From NCBI RefSeq assembly GCF_006345805.1, contig NW_021833032.1, positions 62,001 through 126,000 of the forward strand: a stretch of DNA of 64,000 nucleotides, read 5' to 3'. Source of the stretch: Octopus sinensis (taxonomy: Eukaryota). The notes below the pieces were generated by a model. The model did no database searches, had not been told where the DNA came from, and worked only from the letters and a program-made list of their open reading frames with translations. Position 1 is the first letter of the stretch. Each line of letters begins with the position of its first letter. A program made the translations under genes and the position numbers. Positions 10,367-61,700 of this stretch are shown piece by piece.

Positions 10367-10548
10367 ATGTTCCAACAATTGAAATTGAATTTTGTGTTGA
10401 TAATCTCTATGAGTTTCTGTTTGGAGTCTCATGCTGCATCAGACATGTGCAGCATTTGCTTCTGTGACGGTTCTCAGACAAATATAGATTGTTCATTTCG
10501 GCGACTGACTTCGATCCCGCAACCCATTCCACCAAATGTTGAATATTT
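10367..10548 (+). CDS. Coding exon 1: signal peptide, LRRNT cap and start of first LRR
   Basis: [60 protein letters not shown](L); acceptor tttacag at 10346 implies an upstream UTR exon; donor TT|gtaagt. Confidence 0.92.
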
Positions 10549-19500: not shown

Positions 19501-22500
19501 TACATGTTTGGACACACAAGAAAAATCTGGAACCAAATTGCAGTTTCATCGCCTTGTCTCGGGTGCCACTGAAACGTTAGATTTTGTATCCTCCAAAGAG
19601 GGGCGAGAAAACTTGTGGTCCGGTCAGTCTGGCTTCACTAATGACTACACCGTCCAAATCCAGTGAACTGAGGTCGTTTAGAAAGCGTCCTTACTTGAAA
19701 AATGAACCCTGTCCACGCACGTTTAAACTGCCTTGCTTGAGCAAAACAATGTTGAGAGAAATGGGAAAACAAAATGATGCACAACTTACTTTTTGGGCTG
19801 CGGCGAGGGTGAATGGTTTCTCTCACCCTTCTCGGTGGTTGTAGGAGTTTCCACGATCAGGTTTTGTATAAACTTTTGGTTATTGTTCTTTGGAAATTTC
19901 CCAGCGCAAAGGGGTAGATTTCTTTTCAAGAAATTAAGGTGTTGTTAGTTATGCTGAGTATTTGTATTTGAGGTGAAGCGTTAGGTGCTGTGATCTTTTG
20001 GTGTGATGTTGGTAGTTTTATGTATGTATTTCATTAGGGCTTCAATATGTGGATTGCAGGGAAATTTACGAAGGTGATTTCGAAGGGGATATTTGTATGG
20101 CGGGTGGTGTTGGCAGCGGTATTAGTGGTGTTTGTAATGTTGGTGTTATAGTAGATAGTTGTGTGTATGTGTTGTGGGGAGGTGCTTGGATGGTGTCCTT
20201 CATGCATTTTTTCCATTTAGGGACTTCGCTCAACTAGTGTTTGTTTCCTTCTCTGGAAGTGTCTCCTACTTGTTGCTCCTCTTCTCCTTCTTTCCCTTCT
20301 TTTTTTCTTCTTCTTCTTCTTCTTCTTCGCCCTCGCCCCTCCTCATTCTTCTTCTTCTTCTTCTTTTTCTTCTTCTCCTTCTTTTTCATCATCATCATCT
20401 TCTTCTTCTTCTTCTTCTTCTTCTTCTTCTTTTTCTTCTTCTTTTTCTTCTTCTTTTTCTTCTTCTTCATCATCATTATCTACTTCTTCTTCATCATCTT
20501 TTTCTTTTTCTTTTTCTTACCATAAATGTTCTTCTTGACACAATTTTATATTCCAGGTATTTGGCTGGTAACGAAATCGAAGAAATCAACGAAAACACTT
20601 TCCAAAATCTCTCCAGTTTAAAATATCTGTAAGTTGAATCAATCTTCTTTTATACTATTGCACTGAAGATATCTTCCTAAATCCGTAATGTCTTTCCATA
20701 CTTCAATTTAAGGTCTACATCCGTCTCTCTATACATGCATTTTATTGATTTTGGATGTTTGTGAAAGTGAGTCTGGGTCCACTTTTAAGATAGGAGATAT
20801 ATGCGAATGATTGTGACTGTGAGTGTGGTAGCATTTCTGACAGTTGGTATATATATATATATATCAGTGTGACACTTGAGGAGGCATAGTTAATGCATAC
20901 CTGTGTTTATATATAAATACTTGTCTCGGTGTATGGATGAGTGAATGGGAGTGTAAAAAAATGAGTGTGTAATTCAGTGTCTATATCATGTACGTTGTTT
21001 ACCTCGAGATCTGTGGTTCTTAACCTAGGAGCGCACCTCCTGGGGCAGGATGTGCGTCAGTAACTGTGAAGGGAGCGCGACCGCTTGCGAAAAAGTAGAA
21101 GTTTCTCTAATTATATGTGTTATTTTCTTAACGAGAACATGGTCAAATAATGACAAGTTTATGAAAAAAATGCAAAATTATCGCCTAATACCTTTAGATT
21201 TCTTATTCTACTATCTTAGCGCCACTCATCATTTTCTGTAATTTCATATCCTTGAAAACTCTCACTTATTTCTGAATTGTAGCTTTAACATTTGCCTATA
21301 TTTTAACACTTTAACATTTGCCTTTTATTTTTGTGTTGTTACAAGAAGACTCAGGTTAATAACCCCTGCTACAAGGCATAGATACTATTAACATCTTTTC
21401 CAGTTAATAGATTATAAACAAGTTTGATCCACAGTTTTCATATATATGAAATAATGTGATTCTTAAAAATCAAGAGACATGCTGAAACATTATCAAATCA
21501 TTATAGTAACATACTAAGAAATATTGACTTAATTTAACAAATTGAAAACTATTTTAAAATATTAGGAAGATCAAAAGTATTATATAATTAAAAATAGGAA
21601 ATAAAACAAAAATAATAGATTCTACTATTTCTCAATTTAATAAAGTCTCAAAACAATTAAAACACACATTAGAAAAAAATATTGGCAATAAAACCAAATT
21701 TTTTTTTATTAAATGCTTATGTGAAAGATATAGTAAACACGTTCGTAAGAAAATAATTATAATATAAAGCCAAATGTTAAACTAAAATCAAACTTAAATA
21801 TTACAGAAAGTACTAGGTAAAACTAAAACCTATGCAAAATGTTTTTTTTTCTCAAGAAACTTTTTTTTTATATTTTCGTACAAAAACTACATTTTATTGT
21901 ACAAATGTTTCGTATAACTGTTCTTTTACTCCAAATATTAAAAAAAAAATTTCAGAACTTTGTACTCAAAATGTTCCAACTTGGTCCTTGAGATAACCTT
22001 ACGCGTGTCTTACCATTTGTTCTCATATTTCTGTTGTCCACTGCACATGAAATAATTCGCAATGAGTACAGAGTAATCGAAGTATCTTGACGAATTTATT
22101 TCGATTTGGATTCGTGTCCCTCCAAACGGGTGACACAGAAGTCCCCCAGTGCGTGGTATGTTACAAAACTTTGAGCAATGATGGAATGCGACCCTCACGC
22201 TTGGAATGCCACTTGAGGACAACACATCCTACTCTTGCAGACAAGCTCAAGACATTCTCTGAAACAAAAAGAAGTTTCTTGAAGCAAGCTAGATTTGCTT
22301 GTGGGGCATTTCGGCAACAAATTTCAATAATTGTCGAGACTTCCTATGAGATCGCCATGTTGATTGCAAAGAGCAAGAAGAGCCATAATATCGGAGAGTC
22401 TCTCCTAAAACCAAGTCTACTACCTGCAGCAGAACTCGTTCAGGGAAAAGATAGTCCATACAAGCTTTCCCCGATTTCACAATCAAATGATACAGTCAAG

Positions 22501-24124: not shown

Positions 24125-24166
<42 letters not shown>

Positions 24167-25494: not shown

Positions 25495-25591
<97 letters not shown>

Positions 25592-25940: not shown

Positions 25941-28900
25941 CGTCAAACTGACAAGCCTCACTTGACATGACTATGAATTTTGTAAATAAAAACACATAAT
26001 ACGTGTATTTGCACCCTTCAAGTTTGTACTGTCGTGGAAATTGCTGTCGAGTGGTGAGTTTATTTTTCTGCTTTCTCGCCCATTTTGTGGGGACAAATCA
26101 GTTGATTTTGTTTTCCATTCAAAGTTGTTTGCGTTTAACATGGAGAAAGCAAAACAAAACACGGTGACACTCATTTGTGAGAACAGGAATGAGAGTGAGG
26201 AGCATCACCAAACGCCAATAAGAGAGAGAGAGTGCAAGAGTGGCAGACGATGGCGCGTTAGAAAAAGAAAACAGATTGCAGCTGTATTTTGGTTTTTAAA
26301 AAAAGGCAAAAAGGCAAGAAGGGCTAATTTCTTTCGAGAAAGATCTCATAAAGGAACTTTTGGAAAAACAAATATTTCATTTTCGACAACATTACTCAAA
26401 ATGAAAGCAGCAATTTCGAAAATGTAATCAATAGGCCCTTTCGTGAGTGAAGCGACGGACGATGCGAGTACAAGTAACCACAACAACAACAACAGCAGTA
26501 ATAACAACAGCAAAAACAACAGCAGCAATAACAGCAATAACATCAGTAGCACCACCAACAATAGCAGAAGTGGCAACAGCAACAACAACGATAAAAACAA
26601 CGATGGAACTGAGAAAAAAAGCTGTTGCAACGGCTTGAAGTAACTCGAAACTTTCCTTGGCTGGAGGTACCAAGTCATCTCTTCAGACAGTACAAATCTC
26701 TGAAAGGGAACATAAATATGCCAGGCAGCTAACCGAGAGAGAAGTCTTACTGTAAAGCTAAATACCCCTTTGAAATTATTCAGGTTATGCTAAGTTGCAC
26801 AGTGACGTACCGTACCATCGGATAAAAATCAAGATGGGTAGAAATATCTAAGCAGTTCAAATACAAAAGGGTGAAATCCATAGCAATAGTTACAGAAAGG
26901 AAGGGGATATAGGATGGTAGAGATCAGATTCTGCGCAAAGGAAGCTAAAATCTCACTCTCTGAATCCCCTCGAATTCCCTATTTTGAGCCAGACGAAATG
27001 TGCGTTCCTCTCCAAGCTCTCATGAATAATCATGAATGAATTAGCGAAGATGAAATTCTATGTTTTAACATAGCTCAGGATTGGAAGCTCATGAAACATT
27101 GGAATAAATTTCAAACCGAAGGTTTTAAAGTTATATTTGAAAGATTGAGTAAGAATTCTGGTCAAACCTCTGGTTTTAGGCACCATGAGTTACTCCTTGT
27201 TTGCCAAAGACTTTATCAACCATTTTCCTGCCTTACCACAAGATTTCTTGTGGAAATTCTCATCAATGTCCTATTCCCACGTCCTAAAAATGGAGGTTCG
27301 AGGGCTTTCAGATACGTGTGGGGCTACTCACAAACTGTTTTACGATCAGTTCATGCCAGATACTGACGTCCAAAGGGCTCAAACTAGGTGATGAATGAGG
27401 CCAAGTGCCCTTATCCTAAAACCTTTTCGCAAACTCATCCATGGGAAACATTTGTCTCACTACACTTGTGTCACAAAGAAGATCCTCTTACCATCAGAGA
27501 TCATGCAGTTGAAAATTATCACTTGGACACTTTTGGCTTTCTCGTGAGCTGAAACCAGAACTCAGCTGTCGCGTCGGTTTGTGTGCATATCCTGGTTGAA
27601 TATCTTCTCACTCGAAGGTTGTGTTTCACTTTGTCGCAGATGAACTTCGCCCTCTCTCTAATCATCATCTACATTTACATTTTTTAATTATATCTATTTT
27701 TTTCGTCATAATATTTAACATTTTGACACTAAACTTTTCTATATGTTTGTTATGAACTCCGTTTTATGTTTCAGGGATTTGTATGGCAATAATATAAAGT
27801 ATATTCAACGCGGTACCTTCGAAAACCTTCAAAATTTAGAAGAACTGTGAGTTGGGTCGCTTTTGTTCGTACCATCTATTTCCCAATATATCTATATTCT
27901 TAATATTTTCTCCAACTTTGTTTTCTATCTCTCTTTCTAGAGTGTATCTGTCTAACAACCGTTCACTCTCTCCATAGTTTTCTCTGAGTGTATGTGTGAA
28001 TGCGTGTTTGTGAAAGTGTAGGCGTGTGGATGAATGAGCTTCTTTTTTACTTACTTCTTATGCATAGGTAATCATGTTCTTGTTTCTAAACATCCGTTTA
28101 CCTAATATTCAAATTCTCATTATTCAGCTATATTCTATCATTTTTTCTCGTTCTTTACTTCTTTATTCTAGTTTTCTAAGTTTATCTTTTAATCTTCATA
28201 TGTTTATGTGTATGGATGTACAGACACCGAGTATATCAGAAAAAAGTGTTCAAATTTTAGATAGAACTTCGGAACGTTGTGTCTCAGTATCACTGAAAGG
28301 TAACAGAACTATCAGCGGCTTTTCTAACACAAATGGATCCTATTTTGAGCAAGACGATATGTGAGTTCCTCTCCAAGCTCTCATAAATAATCATGAATGA
28401 ATTGGCGAAGATGAAATTCTATGTTTTAACATAGCTCAGGATTGGGAGCTCATGAAACATTGGAATAAAGTTCAAACGGAAGGTTTTAAAGTTATATTTG
28501 AGAGATTGAGTAAGAATTCTGGCCAAACCTCTGGTTTTTAGGCATCATGAGTTACTCCTTGTTTGCCAAAGACTTTATCAACCATTTTCCTGCCTTACCA
28601 CAAGATGTCTTGTGGAAATTCTCATCAAAGTCCTATTCCCACGTCCTAAAAATGGAGGTTCGGGGGCTTTCAGATACGTGTGGGGCTACTCATAAACTTT
28701 TTTACGACCAGTTCATGCCAGATGCTGACGTCCAAAGGGCTCAAACCAGGTGATGAATGAGGCTAAGTGTCCTTATCCTAAAACCTTTTCGCAAACTCAT
28801 CCATGGGAAACATTTGTCTCACTACACTTGTGTCACAAGGAACATCCTCTTACCATCAGAGATCATGCAGTTGAAAATTATCACTTAGTCAGGTGTTTGC

Positions 28901-31900
28901 CCCTAAACTGACACTTTTGGCTTTCTCGTGAGCTGAATCCAGAACTCAGCTGTCGCGTAAGTTTGTGCGCATATCCTGGGTGAATATCTTCTCACTCGAA
29001 GGTTGTGTTTCACTTTGTCGCAGTTGAACCTCGCCCTCTCCAATCTTCTAAACTTTTGTCCTGGAGTATCAAGACTCCTCACAAGTTTCATATGCGATTT
29101 CATTTTCACTTCTTCTGTCGCCAGATGCCAATAAACTTATGGATTGATTTGGATCTCTTCTGATCGATCTCTTCAGCTCCAGATTGAAATGATCTTTCTT
29201 GAGGTAATGACCTCTTTATGTAGCTTTCCTCTCTACTATTCCATCTTTCTCAAACTTATACACAATTGTCTTGATATTCATTGAATGAACTTTGAAGATG
29301 GAATCTAGAGAATGAATTTCGGTACCATTACTGAAGGACTGAATGATCTTAACCCTCTCAACCTTACTCAGTCGGGTGTGGCTGACACAAAACTATTTCA
29401 TCCTGTTAACTTTCTAGCTAAATATCTCAAATGGTATTTCACTGATTCTTATAAAAACGGGTGTCAGTATGTCCAAACACCTTATGTGCAAAACATGTAA
29501 CAAAAAGCAAAAAGTGTGTTAGTTTAAAATTGTTCAAGAGTATTTGAGCATGGCAGGTTTGCTGTTACACCTGTTATATATTCATGTCTAAGTATATGTG
29601 CGAGTGCGTGTGAATGTATCAAATCTTAACCTATTCTCCATCATCATCACTAGAAACTTCACTAGCACGAACGTCAACATGAAAATCATCATCATTATCT
29701 TCAAAATTATCCTCATTAGAATCATTATCACAATCAGCACCAGCAACATTTTCTTCAACACTACCACATTCTTCCTGTCTTAAGACTGAAAACTATATAC
29801 GACGACGACGTCTGGCACCACCACCTCTCCTCCTCCTCCTCCTCCTCCTCTCCTTCACCAACACCACCATCAGATTCTCTTGTGAAAAGAAACTGCGAAA
29901 AAGCGAAACCAAATCACATGAAAATATAAAAACGAACACTAGTGACTTCTACACATTTCAAAAGTATTTACCTTAGTGCGCAATAACCTATGGCCAGGAG
30001 GATAAGCGAAATACTCAATTAACAATTCGCAAATGCTTTCAATTCCTCATTAGAAAATATGCAAATAAGCAAGGTTGATAAGTTCCTCAGAAAAGAAAGA
30101 AAACATCTGTTATTTCGATGTGAACTTAGTCACGGCTCTATTACAGGTATAATTCTCTGATCCCACATATTAGGTAAGTTATGAGACTCGTTGTCGGAAA
30201 GTAGTTGATTACATTTCGAGAACGAAACCTATTCACTAACATACAGAATGGCTTCTGTCCAGGAAGGAGTTGTCTTACTCAGCAGCTACTGGAATGTGAC
30301 TGGGTACTGAAACAACAGGTGAACTTTTCAAATATGGATGATATCTGGACATCAATATTCCAACATCAGCCATCTTTAACCAGTCTGCAATTAACATGTT
30401 AATGTTTTTAATTTGTTGTGAAGTGTTTCAATATGCGTAGATTTGTAATATTAACAGATTTTTCTTGCAGTCAGAACCTTGTGCGGGTGACCAAATATAT
30501 ACTATATCATGATTGCCAGAGTAGAGGCTTCATTATTACGTTAAGAGTTTTGGAAGAACACCTGTTAATGAAACAATGTGGACATTAGTTAGTTCTATAT
30601 GATGCTTATTTTTGTCATTAAGCGAATGCCACAAAGTTTCTGACCATTTTTGACCAATAGCAGTACTGAGTATTGGATAACTAGAATTTTATTTGAAAGT
30701 ACTTTTTTAGTATGCTGGCATCCGGAATCAGTAAATGTATCATGTTTAACTAGTGTACTTTACGGGTAATTCATGATACTATATAGTATTTTGCACATTT
30801 TACCTATTTTCTAGTATTTAAATAAGATTTTAAAGTATTATTTCCCGTGAAGTAGAATTCAAGTGTCTATGGACTGATACTATTAGGTCGTCAAGTATGA
30901 AATTTGTACTAAGGTATATGGTAAAATTTGATAGCTTCTCGTTTTGCGCCATTATTATATTTTGATAACCTATATTTGTTTTAGAAAGCTGACGCATCTA
31001 GTTCTTTATACTTTGCGCTTTATAAAGTATTTATTAATCGCTTTTTGCTATTTTTGTTTAGGGATGGATAAGTCAGAAATTCGTACAGTTTTTAAATATG
31101 AGTTCTCTTTTGGAAATACAGCATCACTGATAGCTCGGAATATTAGTAGGAAATTTCATTCTAATGTTATTACACAGCAGACAGTATCAAATTGGTTTGC
31201 AATATCTAGTTCTGGTAATTTTGATTTCTCAAATGAACAATGCGATCGACCAGAAACAAAGTTGGATATTTTCGAACTGAAAGCAACCATCGAGTCTGAT
31301 CCATCTCAAAGTGCCTGTGAATTATTGTTGTTGTTTTATGTAAGCAAGCAATATTGACTCACCTAGTTCAAATCGGTAAAGTGAAAACTTTGGATAAGTG
31401 GCTTCGACATGAATTCAATGAAAATCAGAAATAGGAACGTCTGAAAGTCTGCATTATGCTAGTTTCTCGTCGCAAAAATGAATTATTTTTTAATCAAATT
31501 GTAGCGTGATGAGAAATCGATCCAATGCCACAACTGTAGAGGTTAACCACAATGGCTGGACAAAGATGAGCTACCAAAACATAGTTCAAAACGCAAAAAA
31601 GCTGATGGTGTGTGTTTGGTGGTCTGGTCCAGGTCTGATCCTTTATGATATCATTAACCCTGGCTCATTAATCTCAACCGAAGTACACTGCAGCCAACTG
31701 GAACAAATTATGCACAAACATACAAAAACAACCTAGATTAGTCAACAGATCACTCCTATTTTACTGCAAGACAACGCCGGATCATAAATCGAAAAAATAA
31801 CTTTGGCGAAACTACAGGGTTTCGAGTTGGAAGCTCTCCTTCATCTACCTACTCACCCGATATTGCCCCCACTGACTACCACATCTTTCAGAATTTCACT

Positions 31901-34322
31901 AACTTTTTGCTAGGAAAAAACATTAATTCCGATGATGCTATAAAACAAGCCTTCCAGGAATTTATTGTCTCTAGACTGCCAGGCGTTTATAGTTCCGTGC
32001 TGCACAGGCTATCGCTGAAATGGCAAAAGTGTATTGAAAATATGGGTGCATACATTGAAGAATAAAACTATTCCTTGTATTTACAAAACATTGGTTTTCG
32101 ATAATTTTCATACTTGACGACCTAATATGAAAGAAGATACATGTTTTTCTAAACAGTTAAGAGACAAACATTAATTCCTACATATATTTTGAATATGTTT
32201 CTTAAAGTTGTGAATTGGTGTTAAGATAAATGTTTTAATTATTCATGATTGATTTTTGCAATTTCGTCATTATATTGCTCCTGGAATATATAATATTTGT
32301 ACATTCGATGAGAATGTGATGTAAAACCAACATCGTGCACAAAACAATGTCTCGATGTCTTGTTATTCTTATAGCTTATTTTCGGCCATCTTTTGTTAAT
32401 CGGTTATCACAGAAACCTTCTCTTCCCTCAGGATATCTAAGTGAGAATAATGGAAACTACTCTTGTCCAAACTATAGGCAGAAACCTCATAGAGAAATAA
32501 ACATCTTTGTAGTAAACATGTGCTTCTATTTGGTTAGTTTAGACAGTATATTAAAAGTAGAAAACAGACTTATTAATTGTACATATTTTAACTTATAGAA
32601 TACTTGTTTCTCTTTTCCAGATATTTGGGAAACAACCAAATACGAAATTATGAGGATGGCGCGTTCTTATTCCTTCCCAGTATTTATAACATGTATGTAC
32701 AACAATTCTTTCTTTATTGGAAAACCAAAAGTTTGTGTAAACACATGAATAGATGCCATCAGACTAAAATCATAAAAAATGATATCATCAAATTCACAGA
32801 TATTCAATACAGTTGACAATAAATAGCAATGTTTTGGTTTTCATTTTAATGTGGCACCATGAATATTTCTGAGTATTGTGTTTTGTCATTGCAACGTCAG
32901 TGTTCAAACAACATGAAGGTTGGTTTGATATAGTTTCATCCATGTTCGGAAATACGAGGTGTATTCAAAAGGCGTCCAATATTTGGCTAGAAAAGTATCC
33001 AACCTTTGTACATTTCATAAATTTTATTTAATCTTCTTCAAAATACTCCTCTTGGGATTTCACTCACTTGTCTCAAGTTTTGTCATTGATTCTTTCATTT
33101 CTGGAACACCTTGTTGAGAGTGTTATGCAGCTCTGCTGTCCTCTCTCCACTCGGATCGCTTCTCTTTCAGCGTCGTTTTTACTTGTGGAAAGAGTCAGAA
33201 GTCACATGGCCATGTGGGGAGAGTTGGGAGCCTAACGAAAAAGGGGTCTGTTGCTTTTGATCATGAAAGCTTGGATTACGAAGTGCATTCAAAATGTATC
33301 TGAATTTATGTTTTCGCTGGTATTCGCTGCATGTACAAATCCTCCGTTAAATTATAATACACTGATCCTCTGCTTATTTCAACTTCGTGAATAATTCCCT
33401 GGATTGTTACATTACGATCTGCGATGACTAATTACCGAAGCTTCTCAATCAGCTCCTCGTTTTGCCTTCTTTATGGCCTGCCTCAGCGTGCTTCGCTCGC
33501 CTCTGAGGTTCGGCCAATTGTACCACTCTTTGTTCTACGATTTGCCCATCATTAATAAGAGCCTGCCGAATCTAGTCGTTGGTGTAAGTTTGAGTAACAG
33601 CCTTCTTCGACACTAAATGCAATATCTCTGCCCGATGTACCCCTAACACCCAGAGACTGGTGCAGCATTTCCTGTTTTGACATTCACTTAACAAACATCC
33701 TAAATTAAGCACCACATGGATTTAATCACATGGATCTCAATCCTCCAAGGTAATTTTTCCAAGAACTATCATTGAACTCGAGATACACAAACATTTTACA
33801 ATGTTTCGGTGAACCTATTTTTAAATTTTTGTATATGTTTATTATTTTTTGCAAAAAACAATGTAATTTTCTGTTTTCCCCATCTTCAATTATAAAAACA
33901 ATTTCTTTTCACCTTATAATTCTTGAAAAGTCGCATTGCCACGAAAAAACCGGTTTGAATTGATATATATATTTATTTTTTTAAAAAATTTTCCATACAC
34001 CCATTATCAACACAACCCCACCATTTATTGATTTATATATAAGTATATATATATATATATATACATATATATACGTATATATGTATATATATATATGCAT
34101 ATATGTATATATATATATGTATATATGTATATATATGCATATATATATGTATATATATATATATATATATATGTATATTATATATGTATATATATATGTG
34201 TATATATATATAGGTATGTATATATATATATATGTATTGATGTATATAAATATATATGTATATATGTGTATATATATGCATATATGTAAATATATATGTA
34301 TATATATGTATATATATGTATA

Positions 34323-34361
<39 letters not shown>

Positions 34362-35089
34362 GCATAGATTTATATATATACATGTATACATATATGTATA
34401 TATACATATATGCATTTATATAAATAACAATTCATAGCTTGCTGTCTAGGTGGGTGGATGTTTGTCTACTAGCTTGTTAGTCGCTTGCTACCTGTCTGGC
34501 TGGCTGGCTGGTTGGTTGGTAACTATAGGGAAAGAGAATTACCAAAAGCTCCACGTTCTGGAAACAAATTCAAAATAACAGTTGCGTCCACATATATTTT
34601 TTTGGAACTTTAAATAGACGAAGCGAATGGTAGGTTGTGTTTTATGTCTACAGAACTGGGTTGGTGTCCCACGATAAACATTGGAATTGTTTGTATCGAA
34701 AATCGTTTTTAACCCAATGTTCCCAATTTGAAGTAGAAAAAGATCCAGAGAGAAATATTTAGTCAATGCCCTCATCTAAGACATTTCCTACTTCAAACTT
34801 GGAATTCCCCATTCGTTGAATAGTCCTACCACAGTTCTTTCGAATATCGTCAAGAGCAAAGCCCCGATGTATGGAGACAACACAATCATGCTAATCCAGT
34901 CCTGCCCGCAGCATCGATAATTTATTTCTTCTTTACGAAACTAAGTAACCGTGGCGTATTTCTTCCTCCAGTTTCCAGAGAGGTTATGCGTCTTCAGACA
35001 TTTGACACTGACGAGGTGACATTGCTGCTAATCGCTTTGTAGGCGCGAAATTAATGGTGCTTATCTTTCGTATACATGTACTACAGACG

Positions 35090-35120
<31 letters not shown>

Positions 35121-38100
35121 TAAAAGGAATTCCAACCTTGTCTGATTTTCACGTTTTATTTACAATCTTATAATGATATATTATAAGATAATATAATATA
35201 ATAGAATAAAATAAAATAAAATAGTAGAATGCTAAATGTTCATTCTGATTGAACTAGTACTTTCATACATTAATTTCTGCAATCTTCAGGTTTATGTAGT
35301 AGTGGTGACAGTCATGCTTCACAAATTTTGACTGTAGCAAGATGATTGAATCTGTGCCTTAAATACAGATGGGTAGGCACCAGATTGCTAGGTTTTGCAA
35401 ACTGTATTCTGACCAATCAGTGTGTAGTATCACTCAATTACTTAAGCTGATTGGTTGGTTGAGCTGATTAGTTTAGGCGTCACGCCTTGTTGAACATGTC
35501 AAGAGTCCTGTAACTTGACCCTGGGCGAGGCAGCAATTGTTGGGCTATTTTTAGAAATGTTGTAAATAGCCTTTGTCAGAGATTTTTATATTTTTATGTT
35601 TCAATTGTCATCATCATCATTGTCAGTACCTTAATTATTGTTGCTAGTGGTGATGGTGGTGGCAATAGAACTTTTAACCCTAAATAAGATAATTTTCCTG
35701 CTATCCAGGTATTATTATTATTGCTTATTTAGCTTGGGTTCGAATTTATCAATAAAATTCTTTTCTCTAATTTTCCTCTCGATTTCACTTGGGTTGTGTA
35801 ATTTATAGAATGGAAATATTATATATATTTTCCGACCACATGTTGCTAGGTGGTTACTCAAAGGTATCTGACGGACCTCTGGGTCTCTAATCTGTTGTCG
35901 GTGTACACGTGAGCGTTCTGATAGTGCATTTCCCGTCTGACCTACATATATTTCTTCACAATTTGGGCATTTGATGCAGTAACTTAAATTTCTGCTTTCG
36001 CAGTTCATATTCGCGTTTGTGAATATTTTCCCGGTTTTTGTATTTATATATTGGCCGGTATGTATGAATTGGCATTTATATTAGACACAGTCAAACTTAT
36101 TCTAGAAAACAACACATTCTCCTTCAATGGAAAGAATTACATCCAAATTAGAGGCACGGCGATGGGAACGAGGTTTGCTCCCGTTTACGCCAACTCTGTA
36201 ATGGGATGCTTAGAACAACAACTCTACCAAGAGGTGGAGGTAAACTATGGCACTGGATTTAGAAAGTATATTGAAAAGGCATGGAAGACTGCTTCATAAT
36301 CTGGACAGAATCTCTAAATACTCTGGAAGAGTTCAATATCCTCCTGAACAACCTACACCCATCTCTCCAATTTACAAAGGAGATAAGTAGTACCAAATCA
36401 CCATTCCTAGATATAACGGTAATTAAAAAAGACACCACCATCATCACAGATATATTCTATAAACAGACAGACACACATCAATGACTAAATTTTAAGTCGT
36501 GCCATCCACCACATACAAAAAGCAATATCCTATACTGCCTAGCCAGAAGAATTTGTACCATTATAGAAGATGCAAATATCATGATCAAACGCCTAACAGA
36601 ACTAAGAGAATATTTGCTCAAACAAAAATACCCATACAACAACTTAGGACAACCCAAGGAAGAGGAAAACAAGAACAAGTCATACCATTCATAGTGACAC
36701 ACAACCCATGTCACCAGATAATCTTCAACATTACCAAAGAAAACCTGCCAATCATTGCCCAAAATAATGAATTAAAAGACATAATCACGGATCGAGCTAT
36801 GTTTCTTAGTAAAAGACAGCCTAAAGTCTTGAGAAAATTACTAACAAAGGCAAAATTTGAGATTAGCAACAAATTTCTTAATTATATTTAATTTCTTTCG
36901 TCATAATATTTAACATTTTGACACTAATCTTTCCTATATGTTTGTTATGAACTCCGTTTTATGTTTCAGGGATTTGCATGGCAATAATATAAAGTATATT
37001 CAACGCGGTACCTTCGAAAACCTTCAGAATTTAAAATATCTGTGAGTTGGGTCGCTTTTGTTCGTACCATCTATTTCCCAATATATCTATATTGTTAATA
37101 TTTTCTCCAACTTTGTTTTCTATCTCTCTTTCTAGAGTGTATCTGTCTAACAACCGTTCACTCTCTCCATAGTTTTCTCTGAGTGTATGTGTGAATGCGT
37201 GTTTGTGAAAGTGTAGGCGTGTGGATGAATGAGCTTCTTTTTTACTTACTTCTTATGCATAGGTAATCATGTTCTTGTTTCTAAACATCCGTTTACCTAA
37301 TATTCAAATTCTCATTATTCAGCTATATTCTATCATTTTTTCTCGTTCTTTACTTCTTTATTCTAGTTTTCTAAGTTTATCTTTTAATCTTCATATGTTA
37401 TGTGTATGGATGTACAGACACCGAGTATATCAGAAAAAAGTGTCCAAATTTTAGATAGAACTTCGGAACGTTGTGTCACAGTATTACTGAAAGGTAACAG
37501 AACTATCAGCGGCTTTTCTAACACAAATGGACCCTATTTTGAGCAAGACGAAATGTGAGGTCCTCTCCAAGCTCTCATAAATAATAATGAATGAATTGGC
37601 GAAGATGAAATTCTATGTTTTAACATAGTTCAGGATTGGGAGTTCATGGAACATTGGAATAAAGTTCAAACGGAAAGTTTTAAAGTTATATTTGAAAGGT
37701 TGAGTAAGAATTTTGGTCAAACCTCTGGTTTTTAGGCATCATGAGTTACTCCTTGTTTGCCAAAGACTTTATCAACCCTTTTCCTGTCTTACCACAAGAT
37801 TTCTTGTGGAAATTCTCATCAATGTCCTATTCCCACGTCCTAAAAATGGAGGTTCGAGGGCTTTCAGATAGGTGTGGGGCTACTCATAAACTTTTTTACG
37901 ATCAGTTCATGTCAGATGCTGACGTCCAAAGGGCTCAAACCAGGTCCTTATCCTAAAACCTTTTCGCAAACTCATCCATGGGAAACATTTGTCTCACTAC
38001 ACTTGTGTCACAAGGAACATCCTCTTACCATCAGAGATCATGCAGTTGAAAATTATCACTTAGTCAGGTGTTTGCCCCTAAACTGACACTTTTGGCTTTC

Positions 38101-41100
38101 TCGTGAGCTGAATCCAGAACTCAGCTGTCGCGTAAGTTTGTGCGCATATCCTGGGTGAATATCTTCTCACTCGAAGGTTGTGTTTCACTTTGTCGCAGTT
38201 GAACCTCGCCCTCTCCAATCTTCTAAACTTTTGTCCTGGAGTATCAAGACTCCTCACAAGTTTCATATGCGATTTCATTTTCACTTCTTCTGTCACCAGA
38301 TGCCAATAAACTTATGGATTGATTTGGATCTCTTCTGATCGATCTCTTCAGCTCCAGATTGAAATGATCTTTCTTGAGGTAATGACCTCTTTATGTAGCT
38401 TTCCTCTCTACTATTCCATCTTTCTCAAACTTATACACAATTGTCTTGATATCATTGAATGAACTTTGAAGATGGAATCTAGAGAATGAATTTCGGTACC
38501 ATTACTGAAGGACTGAATGATCTTAACCCTCTCAACCTTACTCAGTCGGGTGTGGCTGACACAAAACTATTTCATCCTGTTAACTTTCTAGCTAAATATC
38601 TCAAATGGTATTTCACTGATTCTTATAAAAACGGGTGTCAGTATGTCCAAACACCTTATGTGCAAAACATGTAACAAAAAGCAAAAAGTGTGTTAGTTTA
38701 AAATTGTTCAAGAGTATTTGAGCATGGCAGGTTTGCTGTTACACCTGTTATATATTCATGTCTAAGTATATGTGCGAGTGCGTGTGAATGTATCAAATCT
38801 TAACCTATTCTCCATCATCATCACTAGAAACTTCACTAGCACGAACGTCAACATGAAAATCATCATCATTATCTTCAAAATTATCCTCATTAGAATCATT
38901 ATCACAATCAGCACCAGCAACATTTTCTTCAACACTACCACATTCTTCCTGTCTTAAGACTGAAAACTATATACGACGACGACGTCTGGCACCACCACCT
39001 CTCCTCCTCCTCCTCCTCCTCCTCTCCTTCACCAACACCACCATCAGATTCTCTTGTGAAAAGAAACTGCGAAAAAGCGAAACCAAATCACATGAAAATA
39101 TAAAAACGAACACTAGTGACTTCTACACATTTCAAAAGTATTTACCTTAGTGCGCAATAACCTATGGCCAGGAGGATAAGCGAAATACTCAATTAACAAT
39201 TCGCAAATGCTTTCAATTCCTCATTAGAAAATATGCAAATAAGCAAGCTTGATAAGTTCCTCAGAAAAGAAAAAAAACATCTGTTATTTCGATGTGAACT
39301 TAGTCACGGCTCTATTACAGGTATAATTCTCTGATCTCATATATTAGGTAAGTTATGAGACTCGTCGGAAAGTAGTTGATTACATTTCGAGAACGAAACC
39401 TATTCACTAACATACAGAATGGCTTCTGTCCAGGAAGGAGTTGTCTTACTCAGCAGCTACTGGAATGTGACTGGGTACTGAAACAACAGGTGAACTTTTC
39501 AAATATGGATGATATCTGGACATCAATATTCCAACATCAGCCATCTTTAACCAGTCAGCAATTAGCATGTTAATGTTTTTAATTTGTTGTGAAGTGTTTC
39601 AATATGCGTAGATTTAACAGATTTTTCTTGCAGTCAGAACCTTGTGCGGGTGACCAAATATATACTATATCATGATTGCCAGAGTAGAGGCTTCATTATT
39701 ACGTTAAGAGTTTTGGAAGAACACCTGTTAATGAAACAATGTGGACATTAGTTAGTTCTATATGATGCTTATTTTTGTCATTAAGCGAATGCCACAAAGG
39801 TTTTTCCATTTTTGACCAATAGCAGTACTGTGTATTGTATAACTAGAATTTAATTTGAAAGTACTTTTTTAGTATGCTTGCATCCGGAATCAGTAAATGT
39901 ATCATGTTTAACTAGTGTACTTTACGGGTAATTCATGATACTACATAGTATTTTGCATATTTTACCAATTTTCTAGTATTTAAATAAGATTTTAAAGTAT
40001 TATTTCCCGTGAAGTAGACTTCAAGTGTCTATGGACTGATACTATTAGGTCGTCAAGTAAGAAATTTGTAGTAAGGTATATGGTAAAATTTGACAGCTTC
40101 TCGTTTTGCGCCTTTATTATATTTTGATAACCTATATTTGTTTTAGAAAGCTGACACATCTAGTTCTTTATACTTTGCGCTTTTGTTAATCGGTTATCAC
40201 AGAAACCTTCTCTTCCCTCATGATATCTAAGTGAGAATAATGGAAACTACTCTTGTCCAAACTATAGGCAGAAACCTCATAGAGAAATAAACATCTTTGT
40301 AGTAAACATGAGCTTTTATTTGGTTAGTTTAGACAGTATATTAAAAGTAGAAAACAGACTTATTAATTGTATATATTCTAACTTACAGAATACTTGTTTC
40401 TTTTTTCCAGATATTTGAGAAACAACCAAATACGAAATTATGAGGATGGCGCGTTCTTATTCCTTCCCAGTATTTATTACATGTATGTACAACAATTCTT
40501 TCTTTATTGGAAAACCAAAAGTTTGTGTAAACACATGAATAGATGCCATCAGACTAAAATCATAAAAAATGATATCAAATTCACAGATATTCAATACAGT
40601 TGACAATAAATAGCAATGTTTTGGTTTTCATTTTAATGTGGCACCATGAATATTTCTGAGTATTGTGTTTTGTCATGGCAACGTCAGTGTTCAAACAACA
40701 TGAAGGTTGGTTTGATATAGTTTCATCCATGTTCGGAAATACGAGGTGTATTCAAAAGGCGTCCAATATTTGGCTACAAAAGTATCCAACCTTTGTCCAT
40801 TTCATAAATTTTATTTAATCTTCTTCAAAATACTCCTCTTGGGATTTCACTCACTTGTCCCAAGTTTTGTCATTGTTTCTATCATTTCTGGAACACCTTC
40901 TTGAGAGTGTTATGCATCTCTGCTGTCCTCTCTTCACTCGGATCGCTTCTCTTTCAGCGTCGTTTTTAGTTTTGGAAAGAGACAGAAGTCACATGGCGCC
41001 ATGTGGGGAGAGTTGGGAGCCTATCGAAAGAGGGGTCTGTTGCTATTGATCATAAATGATTGGATTACGAAGTGCATTCAAAATGTATCTGAATTTATGT

Positions 41101-42066
41101 TTTCGCTGATATTCTCTGCATGCACAAATCCTCCGTTAAAATATAATACACTGATCCTCTGCTTATTTCAACTTCGTGAATAATTCCCTGGATTGTTACA
41201 TTACGATCTTCGATGACTAATTACCCAAGCTTCTCAATCAGCTCTGAGGTTCGGCCATGTTTGAAGTGGTTGTACCACTCTTTGTTCAACGTTTTGCCAA
41301 TGGCATCATCAATAAGAGCCTGCCGAATCTTCTCGTTGATGTCAGGTTGAGTAACACTCAGTCTTCTTCGAAACTAAATGCAATATCTCTGCTCGATGTA
41401 CCCGTAACAACAGGGGACTGGTGCAGCCTACCGGCGTGGGACACTGATGCGCCATACCGGCGTGTAATACCAAGGCGTCAGGCTGGCGCGGCATATTAGC
41501 GAGGAAAGTTCCAGGCATATGCAGGAAGGATGGCGTCACATCCCACCTAAAGGATTTTGCCCACGAAGCATAAGTTTTGGCGAAACAATCATACATTTTG
41601 AATGTATTTCGTACATAAAATAAATTGAAACTGGTTCACAGGTATACACATACACACACACACACACGCACACAGACATTTAGAAGATTCAAAAGCTGGA
41701 GGATAGCTGTGAAAAGGTTAGAATGTTGAGTGAAAATACACTTTCAAGATGAGGTAAAGGAGCCAGTAAGTAGACTCAAACTGAACAATTCAAATTCTAC
41801 ATGAGCAGTCAGCACCATTGAGCTATATGATCAATGCTAGTAAACGGTGCCTTTAACAAGGTTAAATTATAACGTTTGGAATGTGGATGCATTTTTCATA
41901 AACAAACATCAAAGTTTTGAGTGTGTTCGATTCTCTCTCTCTCTCTATATATATATAATTATATATATACATATATGCTGATACCCTCTTCGGTCATGAC
42001 TGACCATGGGATTGCACCTAGAATGTTACCCTCCCAGGGCAAGTCCGGGAGGGCAAGATTATTATG

Positions 42067-42129
<63 letters not shown>

Positions 42130-42195
42130 TATATATGCATATATATGTATAATATGTATATATATATATGTATGTATACATATATGTATATATAT

Positions 42196-42243
<48 letters not shown>

Positions 42244-42282
42244 CATGCATAGATATATATGTATACATATATGTATACATAC

Positions 42283-42344
<62 letters not shown>

Positions 42345-43080
42345 ACATATATGTATATATACATATATGCATATATATAAATAACAATTCATAGCTTGCT
42401 GTCTAGGTGGGTGGATGTTTGTCTACTAGCTTGTTAGTCGCTTGCTACCTGTCTGGCTGGCTGGCTGGTTGGTTGGTAACTATAGGGAAAGAGAATTACC
42501 AAAAGCCCCACGTTCTGGAAACAAATTCAAAATAACAATTACAAAATCCTTAACCACACAGCCTTACTTGCGTCCACATATATTTTGTTTGGAATATTGA
42601 AACTTTAAATAGACGAAGCGAATGGTAGGTTGTGTTTTATGTCTACAGAACTGGGTTGGTGTCCCACGATAAACATTGGAATTTTTTGTATCGAAAATCG
42701 TTTTTAACCCAATGTTCCAAATTTGAAGTAGGAAAAGATCCAGAGAGAAATATTTAGTCAATGCCCTCATCTAAGACATTTCCTACTTCAAACTTGGAAT
42801 TCTCCATTCGTTGAATAGTCCTACCACAGTTCTTTCGAATATCGTCAAGAGCAAAGCCGATGTATGGAGACAACACCATCATGCTAATCCAGTCCTGCCC
42901 GCAGCATCGATAATTTATTTCTTCTTTACAAAACCAAGTAACCGTTGCGTATTTATTCCTCCAGTTTTTGGAGAGGTTATGCGTCTTCAGACATTTGACA
43001 CTGACGAGGTGACATTGCTGCTAATCGCTTTGTAGGCGCGAAATTAATGGTGCTTCTCTTTCGTATACATGTACTACAGA

Positions 43081-43122
<42 letters not shown>

Positions 43123-46100: not shown

Positions 46101-47462
46101 ATGCCTTCCTGTTATAGGTTCAGAGCTCCCTTGAATCATCTTCACTCAAGGCTTTAGGGACAGAAAATTGCGTGTAAAATGTTTTACTCAATACCTGAGG
46201 CACCAAATTGCCTCCATATAATTTCTGGCACCAAACCGCCCCTAATCCATCATTTAAAGGGATCGGTTTACGTGGTTCTAAATATGCTCCTTGTTTAAAT
46301 TAACTTTTATTATTTAAGACATAAGCTATAAGAGAGTAGGAACTTAATATATTTTCGGTTTCCACCAGAAACCATATCGATTTATTGCTGTTATCAACAC
46401 CTGGCACGAAATATGAATGTCGTTAATTATATTCTTGCTGGAATTATATTATCCTTCTTTCTTGTCAAATACAACAGCAGTTTCTCTTTACCTCTCAAGT
46501 ACATTCACTTAGGGTTTTGTTTATAATTTCAGTGATCTAAGAAACAATAAAGATATGATGTGTGGATGTCACCTGCCAGCCTTGGTAAATTATACTAAAT
46601 CAAAATTCAGCAGAACTGTGTGGGTCGACGGCGAGTGTCAGACAGATCCAGGCAATAACCAAAGCAAAATTATACCTATAATGAAATACTCGCAATGTCA
46701 AAGTTAGTAAAATCTTCCTTGTTTTTGTTATTTAATTATTAGCACTAACAACGTCGGCGAGTTAACACAATCGTTGGCCCGCCGGACAAAACGCCCAGCA
46801 ACATTTCGTGCAACGTTACAGTCATAGTTCAAACTCCGTCCAGAACGATTTTGCTTTTAACCCACTCGGGATCGATAACATAAGAATCACTTGAACGCTG
46901 TGGTCGATGTAATCAACTAAATCTCTCCACACAATATTTCAGGCCATGTGCCTAATTGCCATAAAGAGAACTCGGGATATTCTCTCCTGCTCATAATATG
47001 TATGTAAATATATATATGTACACATACATACCCACACATACACACACATATACAGAGTGGCTCTGTGGTAAGAAGCTTGCTTCCCAACCAAATGGTTCCG
47101 GCTTTAGTACCACTGCATGACACCGTCCGACTAAGGCCTTGTGAGTAGATTTGGTAGAGGGAAACTGAAAGAATCCCATCGTGTATATACATATATATGA
47201 GTGTGTGTGTGTTTGTCTATCTGGGCTTGTCCCACTCACCATCGCTTGATAGCCGATGCTGGTGTGTTTACATCCCCGTAACGTGGCTGTTCGTCAAAGT
47301 AAACCGACAGAATAAGTACTAGGCTTACAAAGAATAAGATATGGGATCGATTTGTTCGACTAAAGGCGGTACTTTAGCATGGTCGCAGTCAAATAACTGA
47401 AACAAGTAAAAGAATAAAGAATAAGAGAGTATAAAACACACAGGCACACGCACAGACACATG

Positions 47463-48127: not shown

Positions 48128-48212
<85 letters not shown>

Positions 48213-48629: not shown

Positions 48630-48670
<41 letters not shown>

Positions 48671-51091: not shown

Positions 51092-51122
<31 letters not shown>

Positions 51123-58741: not shown

Positions 58742-61700
58742 CTGTGTGTCTGTGTGTAGTTTCTCCTGATGACCCCACAAGCCTGCTAGTTTCCAGTATT
58801 ATCAGTGTCTTTTTCCGAACCGCTAGGTTATGGCGAGGTAAACACAGCAACATCAGTTGCCAGAAAATTTTAATGACATTCATAGATTTTATAAAGGAGT
58901 TCATTCTACAAAAACATAAATCACCAGTTTAGCATTATTTCCCTTTATTTGAGTTGTTCCACAATTTTCGCGCTTTTTGTGAGAGCAAAATACAAATAGA
59001 AAAGACCATCAAATAGCTTCCATAGTATTCTTCGTTGAATTTCTAACAACTGAAATAATTGTAAATGAAAGTCGTAACATGCTCTTATAGTCTTCATTAA
59101 TAATTTTCTTTAAATATCTCACATGTATTGATTCCAACCTTAACACTTTTACATTTGGTTTACACCACAAAGTGTTTATTTCCTCTTATTCTTATACATT
59201 ACATATTTGGTTCCTAATACGAATATTTTTGTATTGTATAGATTACTCGTTATTTCAACGCAATTTGCAGTGTCAAACATGTTCAGCTTTTACGTGCAAG
59301 GAATCAGAAATGACAAACTGTATAGGCGATGAGGTAAGCTGAAATGTTACATTCTTCTTTTTAATATACACTTAACCCTCACTTAAAGCCAATATGGCTA
59401 CGTAACCTGTCCCAAGATTTAGCAAGTTGTTATAGGTGCCCATGAAATCGTAAGTAGATACATACATCCTCTCAGTCTTTCCATCCTTGAATCAGCAGAA
59501 CATAGATTAGTGGAATGTGTGAACATACGTGTCTTGGAGTCAGCTTGGAAGCTTGTTCAGGGACCTCCGATCGCATGACTTATGAGATATTCCTGTATCT
59601 TAGAATTTTCGTTTGAACGATGGCTATGTTATCAGGCAAGTCACTGATTTCAAAGTACGGGCAGTTATTCTCCACATCTGTGCTACCAGATGCTCCACAA
59701 CGATGTTCTGAAAGCAATGCATTCGTACAGTGAAGGTGGTATTCCCAGTTTAGTAGTTGTGTGATACCTCTGTGTGAAGGGGGATCGATTTCTCAGGGCA
59801 TCAGAAAGTTTTCCTAGGGAACCCTCGATCTCAATTAGGTGAATTTGAAACTGCACTTTATACACAAGGCTGTGTGAGAGTAATGCAAAGAAGGGGCTAC
59901 AGAGAACATCGAAATCCTGCTTTAACGGTTCCAGGGGTCTATAGATTTACGACTGGATTTTACTGATGTAACTGTACAGACTCGGAGCATCCCAGATTGG
60001 TCATCTTAATCGGATCTTGAAAGAGTGTTAGGCCAGCAGATAAGGATAGTGTAGGATACCCTTAGTTTGAAGTGGAAGTTGGACGTGTGTCTTCGAACTT
60101 GCAAAGATTACAGGGGTTACACTAATAAATTTGTGAAGCAATACAATAGTTGAAAGGGATTATCATCCACGACCAGTGGTAGTGCGTCCTTAAAGGGACG
60201 AAGAGGACATTTAAGTTAAAGAGCGTTTAGCGAAGTGCTATCGATAGGGTCCACGCAGAGATATGAAGCTTTCCCACAGCATTTCGTTCATCTGTTCGGG
60301 ACAGGCAATGGATCGGAGACAGTAGTGTTCTGCAGTACTTATATCGATGGACTATCGGCAGATGTGAAATGTAGCGAGAAGCCGATTACATCATTTGAAA
60401 TATTGAGAGCAATAGACTCTTGCACAAGGCGTAAATAGTCCAGTTTGGATGGTCTGCCTTTCAGGTTTTAGTAATACATGCCAGACGAAATCATTCTGCA
60501 GTCACTCGTTCAATGTCCGGATATTGCTGATTTGTGGAGTTATGATAAACAACTCCTGTCTGATGGGGGACGGTTCTGGCTATCAACCGAGTACAGCATG
60601 ATGAATGCTCCGCCACCAAACTTTAATCAGAGTAGGGAAAGTAGTTTTCCTCTGTCTGGTGACTATAACGAAGGAGGTTGAGTGTAAGATGTAAGTTATG
60701 AGTTCTAAGACATTCCTCTTTTGGTCGACGCCTCATTGACCTCTTCAAGATTCAATTACGAAATAAATTGTGTGTGGAGAGGAAGGTGCTGTCCATAAGT
60801 GAATTTATTGAAAGGTTGGTGAAAACGGTTGACGTTGCAAGAGCGAATGGCACTGCTCTAAACGTATAGACCCGTGTGACGGAAGAAAATTAATTGGAGA
60901 GGGCAGTTGCCCTTAATATTCAGGGTGAGGTTGGATGGTGGGGTTCTTCGATTGGTTCCAGAGGTCCTCCTTCATTACGAGGATCACATCACCATCGTCT
61001 TTAAACTCGTATGCCATTCTCTTTTATATTGTATACCGTGCATGCTTATTTGCATATATTTACGATTCCATTCTATGAGCATCCACACACTTTATGTCTT
61101 TATTTGTATTGGTCACTCATCAGTCGCCCATTACCAAAATACAAAAATGATTATTACAATCATTATTATTGGGATAAATCCAACTTTACCAGAAATAATT
61201 ACTTCACGTTTTTTTTAAAGTTTATAAATTATTAAGACGTCAGCAACATAGAATTTTCGCTGAAAACAATAAAGTTTCTAAAACGGGTAGAGAGATGCGA
61301 AGGATTGCCTTGGTCTGATGTTACAACACCAATCATGATAACAGGAGATGTGGGTTCGAATTCCGCAGGTAGCCTCCGACACCATTTTTATCCAAAGGGT
61401 TTTCTAAACCAATATTAATACTCTATTATTTATAGCTTGCCTAATTCAAGATTCATCGTTTCAAGAAAGAATTATCAAGAAGTGTGATGTTTTTCAGTGA
61501 TTCTTCATGATCTGGGATATTTTCTCTCCAACTTTTATGCGAATATTGTGTATCTTCATTTTATTGCAATAGAATATGCATGCCGAGGAGAAGCATATAC
61601 TACACCTTTTTTTCCCCAAAACCTAAGTGTTTAAGTCCAGCCCTTTTTTTGATTATCCTTATTTACGGCAGTTACCGCTGCGCTTGTTTCTGTTGTTGCT

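What the first reader, a model, noticed from the sequence alone, without database searches (positions are those of the whole stretch)
27680..43083. The exon-adding duplication looks like a multi-kilobase target-site duplication of a Penelope-like element
Seen: the order is [copy A][PLE][copy B]. The PLE 3' end sits in the (TA)n that terminates copy A. Its inverted other end (~36873) joins straight onto the start of copy B with no spacer. Known: TPRT duplicates the interval between the two nicks, and kilobase-scale TSDs have been described for L1 in cultured cells. Inference: a PLE insertion with a distant second nick, or PLE-patched break repair, duplicated two frame-symmetric exons and lengthened the LRR array. 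A unique element at the junction also argues against simple haplotype mis-assembly.
Basis: partly seen in the sequence, partly recalled or inferred. Interest (0 to 1): 0.8.

Follow-up and report, generated by a model that had tools for sequence, protein, structure and literature searches.

The report
Penelope-bridged exon duplication in octopus receptor
A jumping gene of the Penelope type sits exactly at the seam of a 7-kilobase repeat that adds two exons to an octopus receptor gene, most likely because its insertion joined two distant DNA breaks, an outcome described for human LINE-1.

Summary
Observation confirmed. Copy A (27680-35117) and copy B (36874-43119) differ by 2.2% plus large indels. 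Each carries two 72-bp phase-2 LRR exons of an octopus LRR adhesion-GPCR gene. A 1.76-kb Penelope-like element (PLE) fills the seam without spacer.

New here: the PLE has twin-priming geometry. Its endonuclease/3' part and its inverted RT part lie 47 nt apart on the family RNA and meet at a 3-nt microhomology. Its 3' end is in (TA)n; its 5' end has no TA and no short TSD. So the insertion very probably made this junction.

A literal 7-kb TSD is not shown. Best reading (0.5): one PLE RNA bridged two distant breaks and duplicated the segment. Main rival (0.25): a PLE-bridged deletion fused two pre-existing near-identical copies. The segment looks multi-copy in related genomes, A/B identity is patchy, and some A/B differences also occur in those genomes. 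No listed contig bridged the junction, and splicing was not tested.

Such events are known for L1; my searches found none for PLEs. This scan had not noted it on other DNA.

The parts
27680..35117 (+). Copy A of the repeated segment (left direct repeat), ending in (TA)14
27775..27846 (+). LRR exon A1, 72 bp, phase 2-2, open
32621..32692 (+). LRR exon A2, 72 bp; the family's terminal-type repeat (YEDGAFLF), now in mid-array
30881..32127 (+). Decayed Mos1-like mariner with both terminal inverted repeats, in A; older than the A/B split because B keeps its left end
   Evidence: (PF17906)
35090..35117 (.). (TA)14 tract: inferred first nick and priming site
   Evidence: role inferred
35118..35717 (-). 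PLE 3' UTR / pseudo-LTR region up to the element's 3' end
   Evidence: (family depth starts here)
35247..35297 (-). Minimal hammerhead-like motif (CUGAAGA core, GAAA, palindromic 4-nt loop); motif only, fold not supported
35718..36075 (-). PLE GIY-YIG endonuclease part (inferred first cDNA), open
   Evidence: (PF01541, E 1.1e-5)
36073..36873 (+). Inverted PLE RT/thumb part (inferred second cDNA); 3-nt overlap with the endonuclease part at 36073-36075; two internal deletions (near 36287 and 36624-36633) and one stop (36482-36484)
36874..43119 (+). Copy B of the repeated segment (right direct repeat), ending in (TA)18; lacks 1.37 kb of A
36970..37041 (+). LRR exon B1 (3 amino-acid changes from A1)
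40411..40482 (+). LRR exon B2 (2 amino-acid changes from A2)
10367..10548 (+). Host gene first coding exon (signal peptide and N-cap)
20557..20628 (+). Host gene LRR exon upstream of the repeat
46533..46702 (+). Host gene C-cap exon that follows the terminal LRR in homologues
59242..59333 (+). Host gene cysteine-rich exon
62139..62322 (+). Host gene cysteine-rich exon; the gene continues beyond the window

Best explanation
One insertion event made both the PLE copy and the repeat. Step 1 (inferred): the PLE endonuclease nicked the (TA)n at the right end of the original segment, and reverse transcription copied the RNA from its 3' end to just upstream of the endonuclease domain. Step 2 (inferred): a second free 3' end, 7.4 kb to the left, primed a second cDNA 47 nt further up the same RNA. 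Step 3 (junction shown, mechanism inferred): the two cDNAs were joined at a 3-nt microhomology. Because the second end lay upstream of the first, the interval ended up on both sides of the PLE. The second end was more likely a break on the sister chromatid or homologue, or a break-induced-replication product, than a staggered nick on the same duplex; I give the literal TSD about a third of this probability. Later gene conversion and deletions made identity patchy. The result is two extra in-frame LRR exons in an LRR adhesion-GPCR gene, usable by inclusion or by alternative splicing. Shown: the anatomy and junctions. Inferred: the order of events and the source of the second end.
For: (1) Both PLE ends are flush with the repeat boundaries. 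(2) Other family copies leave the window sequence behind 36873 and behind 36075 (runs X2, X20). These loose ends overlap by 11 nt and restore a 47-nt, in-frame linker, matching the spacing in intact relatives P0001-P0003. The RT part starts at 36073, which gives a 3-nt microhomology. (3) No TA and no short TSD on the 5' side, whereas a second PLE in the window (about 24164-25498) has (TA)n on both sides. (4) No PLE of this family at the outer ends of A or B, so unequal crossover between PLE copies is excluded. (5) The PLE is not pristine: 2 deletions and 1 stop in about 1.16 kb of coding sequence, about what the per-lineage A/B indel rate predicts (16 indels in about 5.2 kb over two lineages). 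The relative-rate count is 41 versus 26 changes in 361 residues (not significant). It does not look younger than the A/B split. (6) At 20 of 25 listed variant places inside the aligned blocks, A and B share a letter that public contigs mostly lack (the 25 come from the 40 best-supported rows of 685). (7) L1 precedent: 1-10 kb tandem duplications called large TSDs (10.1101/2024.12.14.628481, passages) and an L1-bridged tandem duplication (PMC7058536, passages).
Against: (1) Only 1 nt of microhomology at the PLE-B joint; 71% of 5'-inverted L1 insertions have 2 or more, and they carry discrete 12-18 bp TSDs (PMC11702581, passages). (2) 8 of 9 listed B-region contigs are about 5-24 times deeper than single PLE-copy contigs of the same run, so the segment seems present in several copies in related genomes (depth is a rough guide only). 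(3) Both the A and the B state of indels at 39363, 39613 and 34862, and of the substitution at 36933, appear among contigs of X1 and/or X20. Some A/B differences are therefore not private post-duplication mutations. (4) A/B identity is strongly patchy, which needs later conversion. (5) No listed contig bridges 36873/36874 (24 of 8746 pieces shown). In X20 no contig carries this copy's own letter at 6 of the 7 listed PLE places. (6) For L1, deletions are the more frequent outcome. (7) 0 of 34 family proteins with the terminal repeat have it twice, so inclusion of A2 is atypical.
Confidence: 0.5

Rival explanations
1. PLE-bridged deletion or fusion between pre-existing near-identical copies. The gene, or a longer tandem duplicate, already existed twice. 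The same twin-primed PLE insertion joined the (TA)n of copy 1 to an intron of copy 2 and removed what lay between. A and B are then halves of two paralogues, not a target-site duplication.
For: Several near-identical copies of the segment in related genomes, and shared A/B indel states. Patchy identity and large indels. The family is tandemly clustered in octopus (PMC6408891, passages). L1-mediated deletions outnumber duplications.
Against: It needs a second break far away that lands in the neighbouring copy. The PLE does not look younger than the A/B split. A and B share letters against public contigs at 20 of 25 listed places. No second gene copy is visible in the 64-kb window.
Confidence: 0.25
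2. The duplication came first, by replication slippage or end-joining with one breakpoint in the (TA)n. An ordinary PLE later inserted into the junction's TA tract and trimmed the few bases on its 5' side.
For: PLE clades with the CX2-5CxxC linker favour microsatellites (PMC8557442, passages). The window holds a second PLE and three other hammerhead-like motifs next to TA tracts. TA tracts are fragile (recalled).
Against: It needs three coincidences: a breakpoint in a tract class covering 1.9% of the window, a PLE hitting that tract, and loss of all TA and any TSD on the 5' side. PLE decay is not small relative to A/B divergence.
Confidence: 0.1
3. Assembly artefact: A and B are two alleles or paralogues stitched in tandem through a repeat.
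For: Patchy identity and large indels resemble allelic difference. No listed contig bridges the PLE-B joint, and the raw-read run X21 gave no coverage.
Against: No N gap in the window. The join needs a chimeric junction with no overlap between the PLE end and the start of B. The PLE lacks the short TSD or TA that a normal allele would carry on its 5' side. B-specific states occur in public contigs of X1 and X20, so B is not a consensus error.
Confidence: 0.08

Closest known systems
L1-mediated tandem duplications / 'large TSDs' (10.1101/2024.12.14.628481 and PMC7058536; passages read)
   Same: A retrotransposon copy at the junction of a tandem duplication, its 3' end at an endonuclease target, size in the 1-10 kb class.
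   Different: Those are somatic or cultured-cell events of human L1. This is a PLE, in an assembled invertebrate genome, old enough for 2% divergence, and it adds coding exons. Copy gain is not shown here by reads.
Twin-primed 5'-inverted L1 insertions (PMC11702581, PMC12350158, passages; the original Ostertag and Kazazian 2001 paper seen only as a reference entry)
   Same: Two adjacent, non-overlapping RNA segments in opposite orientation, a small loss between them, microhomology at the inversion joint.
   Different: Loss is 47 nt (1-10 bp in that L1 study), only 1 nt of microhomology at the 5' joint, no 12-18 bp TSD, no poly(A).
EN+ Penelope-like elements, Neptune-like (PMC8557442, PMC3846280, PMC11167929, PMC4209133)
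   Same: RT followed by C-terminal GIY-YIG, cysteine linker in the family, (TA)n target, 5' truncation, hammerhead-like motif in the 3' repeat.
   Different: The described PLE inversions are inverted 5'-truncated copies or pLTRs that form inverted repeats, with 8-10 bp TSDs. Here the inverted piece is the next upstream part of the ORF and repeats nothing. PLE-driven host gene gain in Adineta works by trans-mobilisation between pLTRs, not by tandem duplication.
Octopus LRR adhesion GPCRs (annotated ADGRG6/GPR126-like; probably group 3 of PMC6408891)
   Same: All nine exons in the window match this family (best 67-79% identity); LRR number varies widely between members.
   Different: None of 34 members with the terminal YEDG repeat has it twice (39 examined, 5 without it). 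GPS and 7TM exons lie outside the window and were not seen.

Membership tests
EN+ Penelope-like element | RT followed by a C-terminal GIY-YIG endonuclease in one ORF | tested here: met
   PF01541 hit; tblastn to P0001 covers residues 267-696 in four pieces at 53-62%; linker continuity from loose ends
EN+ Penelope-like element | Pseudo-LTR with a minimal hammerhead ribozyme | tested here: inconclusive
   Motif at 35289 minus, 1 of 4 hits in the window, 0 hits in 20 shuffles; no Rfam hammerhead hit; MFE fold not hammerhead-like, z 0.46
Neptune-like PLE clade | CX2-5CxxC linker upstream of GIY-YIG | tested here: met
   Lost in this copy except the last cysteine. Loose ends of other family copies encode C-x4-C-x2-C, as do P0001-P0003
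Neptune-like PLE clade | Placement in an RT tree with reference clades | not tested
   No reference PLE set was at hand
Twin-primed 5' inversion (L1 type) | Adjacent non-overlapping RNA segments in opposite orientation | tested here: met
   47-nt gap between the two parts on the family RNA
Twin-primed 5' inversion (L1 type) | Microhomology at the inversion joint | tested here: met
   3 nt, 36073-36075
Twin-primed 5' inversion (L1 type) | Microhomology of 2 nt or more at the 5' joint | tested here: not met
   1 nt; absent in 29% of L1 cases too
Twin-primed 5' inversion (L1 type) | Short discrete TSD | tested here: not met
   No short TSD; the flanks are the 6-7 kb repeat
Target-site duplication in the strict sense | Direct repeat flush with both ends of the element | tested here: met
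Target-site duplication in the strict sense | Both copies derive from one molecule and were identical at insertion | tested here: inconclusive
   A=B at 20 of 25 listed places, but both states of some A/B indels occur in other genomes
Target-site duplication in the strict sense | Empty single-copy allele at the orthologous locus | not testable with these tools
   No genome held; contigs of at most about 400 bp on the stretch; TA tract skipped
Retrotransposon-bridged tandem duplication (L1 type) | Reads across both joints with a copy-number gain | tested here: inconclusive
   No listed piece bridges 36873/36874; raw run X21 without coverage
Octopus LRR adhesion GPCR family | N-cap, 24-residue LRR exons, terminal YEDG repeat, C-cap and cysteine-rich domain | tested here: met
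Octopus LRR adhesion GPCR family | GPS motif and 7TM domain | not testable with these tools
   Would lie beyond the window end; present in relatives such as P0006

The most novel reading that the evidence does not exclude
Penelope-like elements routinely twin-prime across distant breaks in the octopus germline and so create kilobase tandem duplications at (TA)n sites. In intron-rich genes with frame-symmetric exons this would be a recurring source of LRR-exon gain in the octopus-specific adhesion-GPCR expansion, with the new repeats then diversifying on the ligand-binding face.
Probability: 0.2. Interest if true: 0.78.

Novelty: new variant of a known kind. Interest (0 to 1): 0.52.

Why it matters
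How PLEs finish insertion (second-strand priming, inverted ends) is an open question in the papers read. A copy with base-resolved twin-priming geometry whose two priming ends lie 7.4 kb apart suggests that PLEs can bridge distant breaks as L1 does. It gives a testable genome-wide signature: PLEs with TA on the 3' side only and long direct repeats on both sides. It also ties a transposon event to exon gain in a receptor family expanded in octopuses. It is a single case, and the class of event is already known for L1.

Tried and rejected
Whole genome not held, so no genome-wide search for PLEs with long flanking repeats and no direct dating against a subfamily.

Unequal crossover between PLE copies rejected: no same-family copy at the outer ends; the other PLE (ORF 24607-25488) is 36-56% identical to P0001 and lies outside the repeat.

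Mariner inserted into A after the duplication rejected: B keeps its left inverted repeat, so B lost it.

My first guess of a GRL101/relaxin-type receptor (recalled) was rejected by homologues.

Raw-read run X21 covered only 5 of 30 bins, at repeats, and was uninformative. The TA tract was skipped by the read-laying tool, so a PLE-less A-B joint could not be looked for. Reads were laid on 34420-41940 only, so A's start and B's end were not examined.

Word-based homologue search with exon B1 found nothing. Rfam gave only sub-threshold miRNA matches to TA repeats. Relative-rate dating of the PLE was too noisy.

No structure was predicted and no RNA data were searched (the one run search was used for DNA).

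Look-ups of earlier findings returned one note on a different phenomenon, which I did not use.
Full report
1. Observation. Masked self-alignment of the window shows one long direct repeat in three collinear blocks. A full alignment sets A at 27680-35117 and B at 36874-43119, with 1756 bp between them. They differ by 110 substitutions in 5078 aligned bases (2.2%) and 16 indel events. B lacks 31018-32389, most of a decayed mariner whose left inverted repeat B still has. One block of about 400-600 bp is non-homologous. Identity is patchy: the longest identical run is 952 aligned bases against a maximum of 616 in 5000 permutations. The window has no N.

2. Host gene. A profile-free search with exon A2 found 22 proteins. 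Of the 6 I looked up by name, 5 are octopus LRR proteins, one annotated as adhesion GPCR G6-like. A second search returned 37 proteins, 32 of them of this family by score; the named ones are from Octopus. P0006 has LRR, GPS, 7tm_2 and Death domains, as described for octopus expansion group 3 (PMC6408891, passages). Nine exons map to the plus strand. Read in order they give 329 codons with no stop, and the frame also stays open if A or B is skipped. So the duplication raises three 72-bp LRR exons to five. A2/B2 is the family's last repeat before the C-cap: of 39 family proteins, 34 have it once, 5 lack it and none has it twice. LRR number varies from 0 to 13 motif matches among them. The source is an octopod by homology, but no family member exceeds 79% identity to any exon.

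3. The element. The minus strand carries a GIY-YIG domain followed by about 600 bp of 3' sequence that ends at A's (TA)14. The plus strand carries the RT/thumb part up to just before the endonuclease linker. Laying contigs of three public runs and one raw-read run on 34420-41940 shows a high-copy family: summed depth over the PLE is 130,000-310,000 in X1, against 41-61 for single pieces. Family copies leave the window sequence behind 36873 and behind 36075. The two loose ends overlap by 11 nt and define a missing 47-nt linker that restores the frame and a C-x4-C-x2-C motif, as in intact relatives. The RT part begins at 36073, so the inversion joint has a 3-nt microhomology. This is the geometry of twin priming as described for L1 (PMC11702581 and PMC12350158, passages). 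It differs from the inverted pLTR copies described for PLEs (PMC8557442, passages; PMC3846280, part 1 of 5 and passages). One other joint in X1 (36039 to 36782, 1 of 15 shown of 172) has the same inverted orientation, a hint that such inversions recur in the family. A minimal hammerhead-like motif lies at 35247-35297 (compare PMC4209133, passages), without Rfam or folding support.

4. What the junctions say. The 3' end sits in (TA)n, the target reported for PLE clades with this linker. The 5' end has no TA and no short TSD, unlike the second PLE in the window, which has TA on both sides. B's far end keeps a full (TA)18. There is no same-family PLE at the outer ends. These points favour the insertion itself making the junction. 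Against a textbook case, the 5' joint has 1 nt of microhomology, and the first 23 nt of B differ from A at 4 places.

5. Age. The copy has two deletions and one stop in about 1.16 kb of coding sequence. The A/B indel rate predicts about two per lineage over that length (my arithmetic). A relative-rate count gave 41 versus 26 changes in 361 residues (chi-square about 3.4 by hand, not significant). The PLE thus does not look younger than the A/B split, but it could not be dated.

6. Evidence that weakens the strict TSD reading. In one search, 8 of 9 listed contigs on B are about 5-24 times deeper than single PLE-copy contigs of the same run. Depending on how single-copy depth is read, this means roughly 2-10 copies per haploid genome; the tool warns that depth is no copy number. 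A minority class of contigs in X1 (depth about 140-200) and X20 (about 13-17), not in X2, keeps B's state at 36933, 39363 and 39613 while the majority has A's. Both states of the 2-nt indel at 34862 occur in X1 and X2. So a B-like copy exists in other genomes: either they share the whole arrangement or B came from an older variant. At 20 of 25 listed places in the aligned blocks A and B agree against the public letter, at 4 A has the public letter and at 1 a third letter. I left out 8 listed places in the non-homologous block and the 7 in the PLE, and 645 rows were not shown. No listed piece bridges the PLE-B joint (24 of 8746 shown). In X20 no contig carries this copy's own letter at 6 of 7 listed PLE places, which may reflect absence, later mutation or dropped contigs.

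7. Mechanism. Most likely (0.5) one PLE RNA was primed from the (TA)n nick and from a second end 7.4 kb upstream, duplicating the interval. A literal staggered cut would need 7.4 kb of duplex to open (inference). For L1, authors invoke break-induced replication (10.1101/2024.12.14.628481, passages) or bridging of sister chromatids (PMC7058536, passages). An in vitro PLE cleaves and extends both strands (PMC11167929, parts 1-2 of 4), which makes a second priming plausible. Rivals: PLE-bridged deletion between older copies (0.25), later ordinary insertion (0.1), mis-assembly (0.08). The first two readings share the core claim that the PLE made the junction (about 0.75).

8. Exon divergence. The exon pairs differ at 7 of 144 bases against 103 of 4934 elsewhere (Fisher P 0.036); 5 codons change the residue and 1 is silent. 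All five changed residues fall at positions 2, 3, 3, 7 and 7 of LxxLxLxxN; positions 3 and 7 are among the four most variable in 77 family repeats (post hoc P about 0.001). That these positions line the ligand-binding face is recalled knowledge. The pattern suggests functional, diversifying exons, or conversion from paralogues.

9. Novelty. Searches for Penelope with twin priming, tandem duplication or long TSDs (listings and abstracts) found no report of a PLE-bridged tandem duplication. The library lacks most subscription papers, and I saw no supplements (for the bioRxiv L1 paper only figure legends), which may hold relevant size distributions. An octopus repeat annotation lists Penelope families but no such events in the passages read (PMC13282606). 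The class of event is known for L1, so this is a new variant of a known kind. Look-ups of this scan's notes found no earlier record.

Noticed in passing
window 26977-27656 versus 28339-29040 and 37532-38215: A 680-bp low-copy segment in three copies. The first ends 23 bp before A starts and is the most divergent (23 private differences against 7 and 12). It may be an older local repair-type duplication (compare PMC2671141, abstract only).
   Followed up: partly
window 24164-25498: A second, distantly related 5'-truncated PLE (GIY-YIG) on the minus strand with (TA)n on both sides; used as a control for an ordinary insertion.
   Followed up: partly
window 48146-48671, 52235-53298, 55419-56573, 57853-58367: A family of inverted-repeat elements next to TA tracts. 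Three places carry a minimal hammerhead-like motif with a palindromic 6-nt loop (48504, 52395, 56323). Probably pLTR-only derivatives of another PLE; 52255-53298 and 55419-56461 form a 1-kb inverted repeat at 97%.
   Followed up: partly
window 36971-36993 and 40434-40438: Public contigs carry further variants in exons B1 and B2: 5 of 6 listed change the residue, three at LRR positions 5, 7 and 8 (codons read by hand). This suggests a young receptor subfamily varying on its binding face.
   Followed up: partly
window 907-1860, 58444-58700, 63332-63781: Fragments of a LINE-like RT 3' end in three places, next to TA tracts; class recalled, no Pfam hit.
   Followed up: no
window 11100-14364 versus 12371-18964: Older internal repeats at 67-69% identity in the first long intron; not identified.
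   Followed up: no
window 22066-22503: ORF resembling a hAT-type (SCAND3/ZBED-like) transposase fragment; resemblance recalled, no Pfam hit.
   Followed up: no
window 23077-23407 and 47590-47921; 2959-3195 and 47184-47423: Short dispersed repeats at 79-87% identity beside TA tracts.
   Followed up: no
window 49210-51121: 1.9-kb degenerate (ACAT)n microsatellite with extreme strand skew.
   Followed up: no
proteins P0009, P0026-P0030, P0035: Annotated isoforms of one relative differ in steps of 24 residues (525, 501, 477 aa), so skipping of single LRR exons is already annotated in this family.
   Followed up: no
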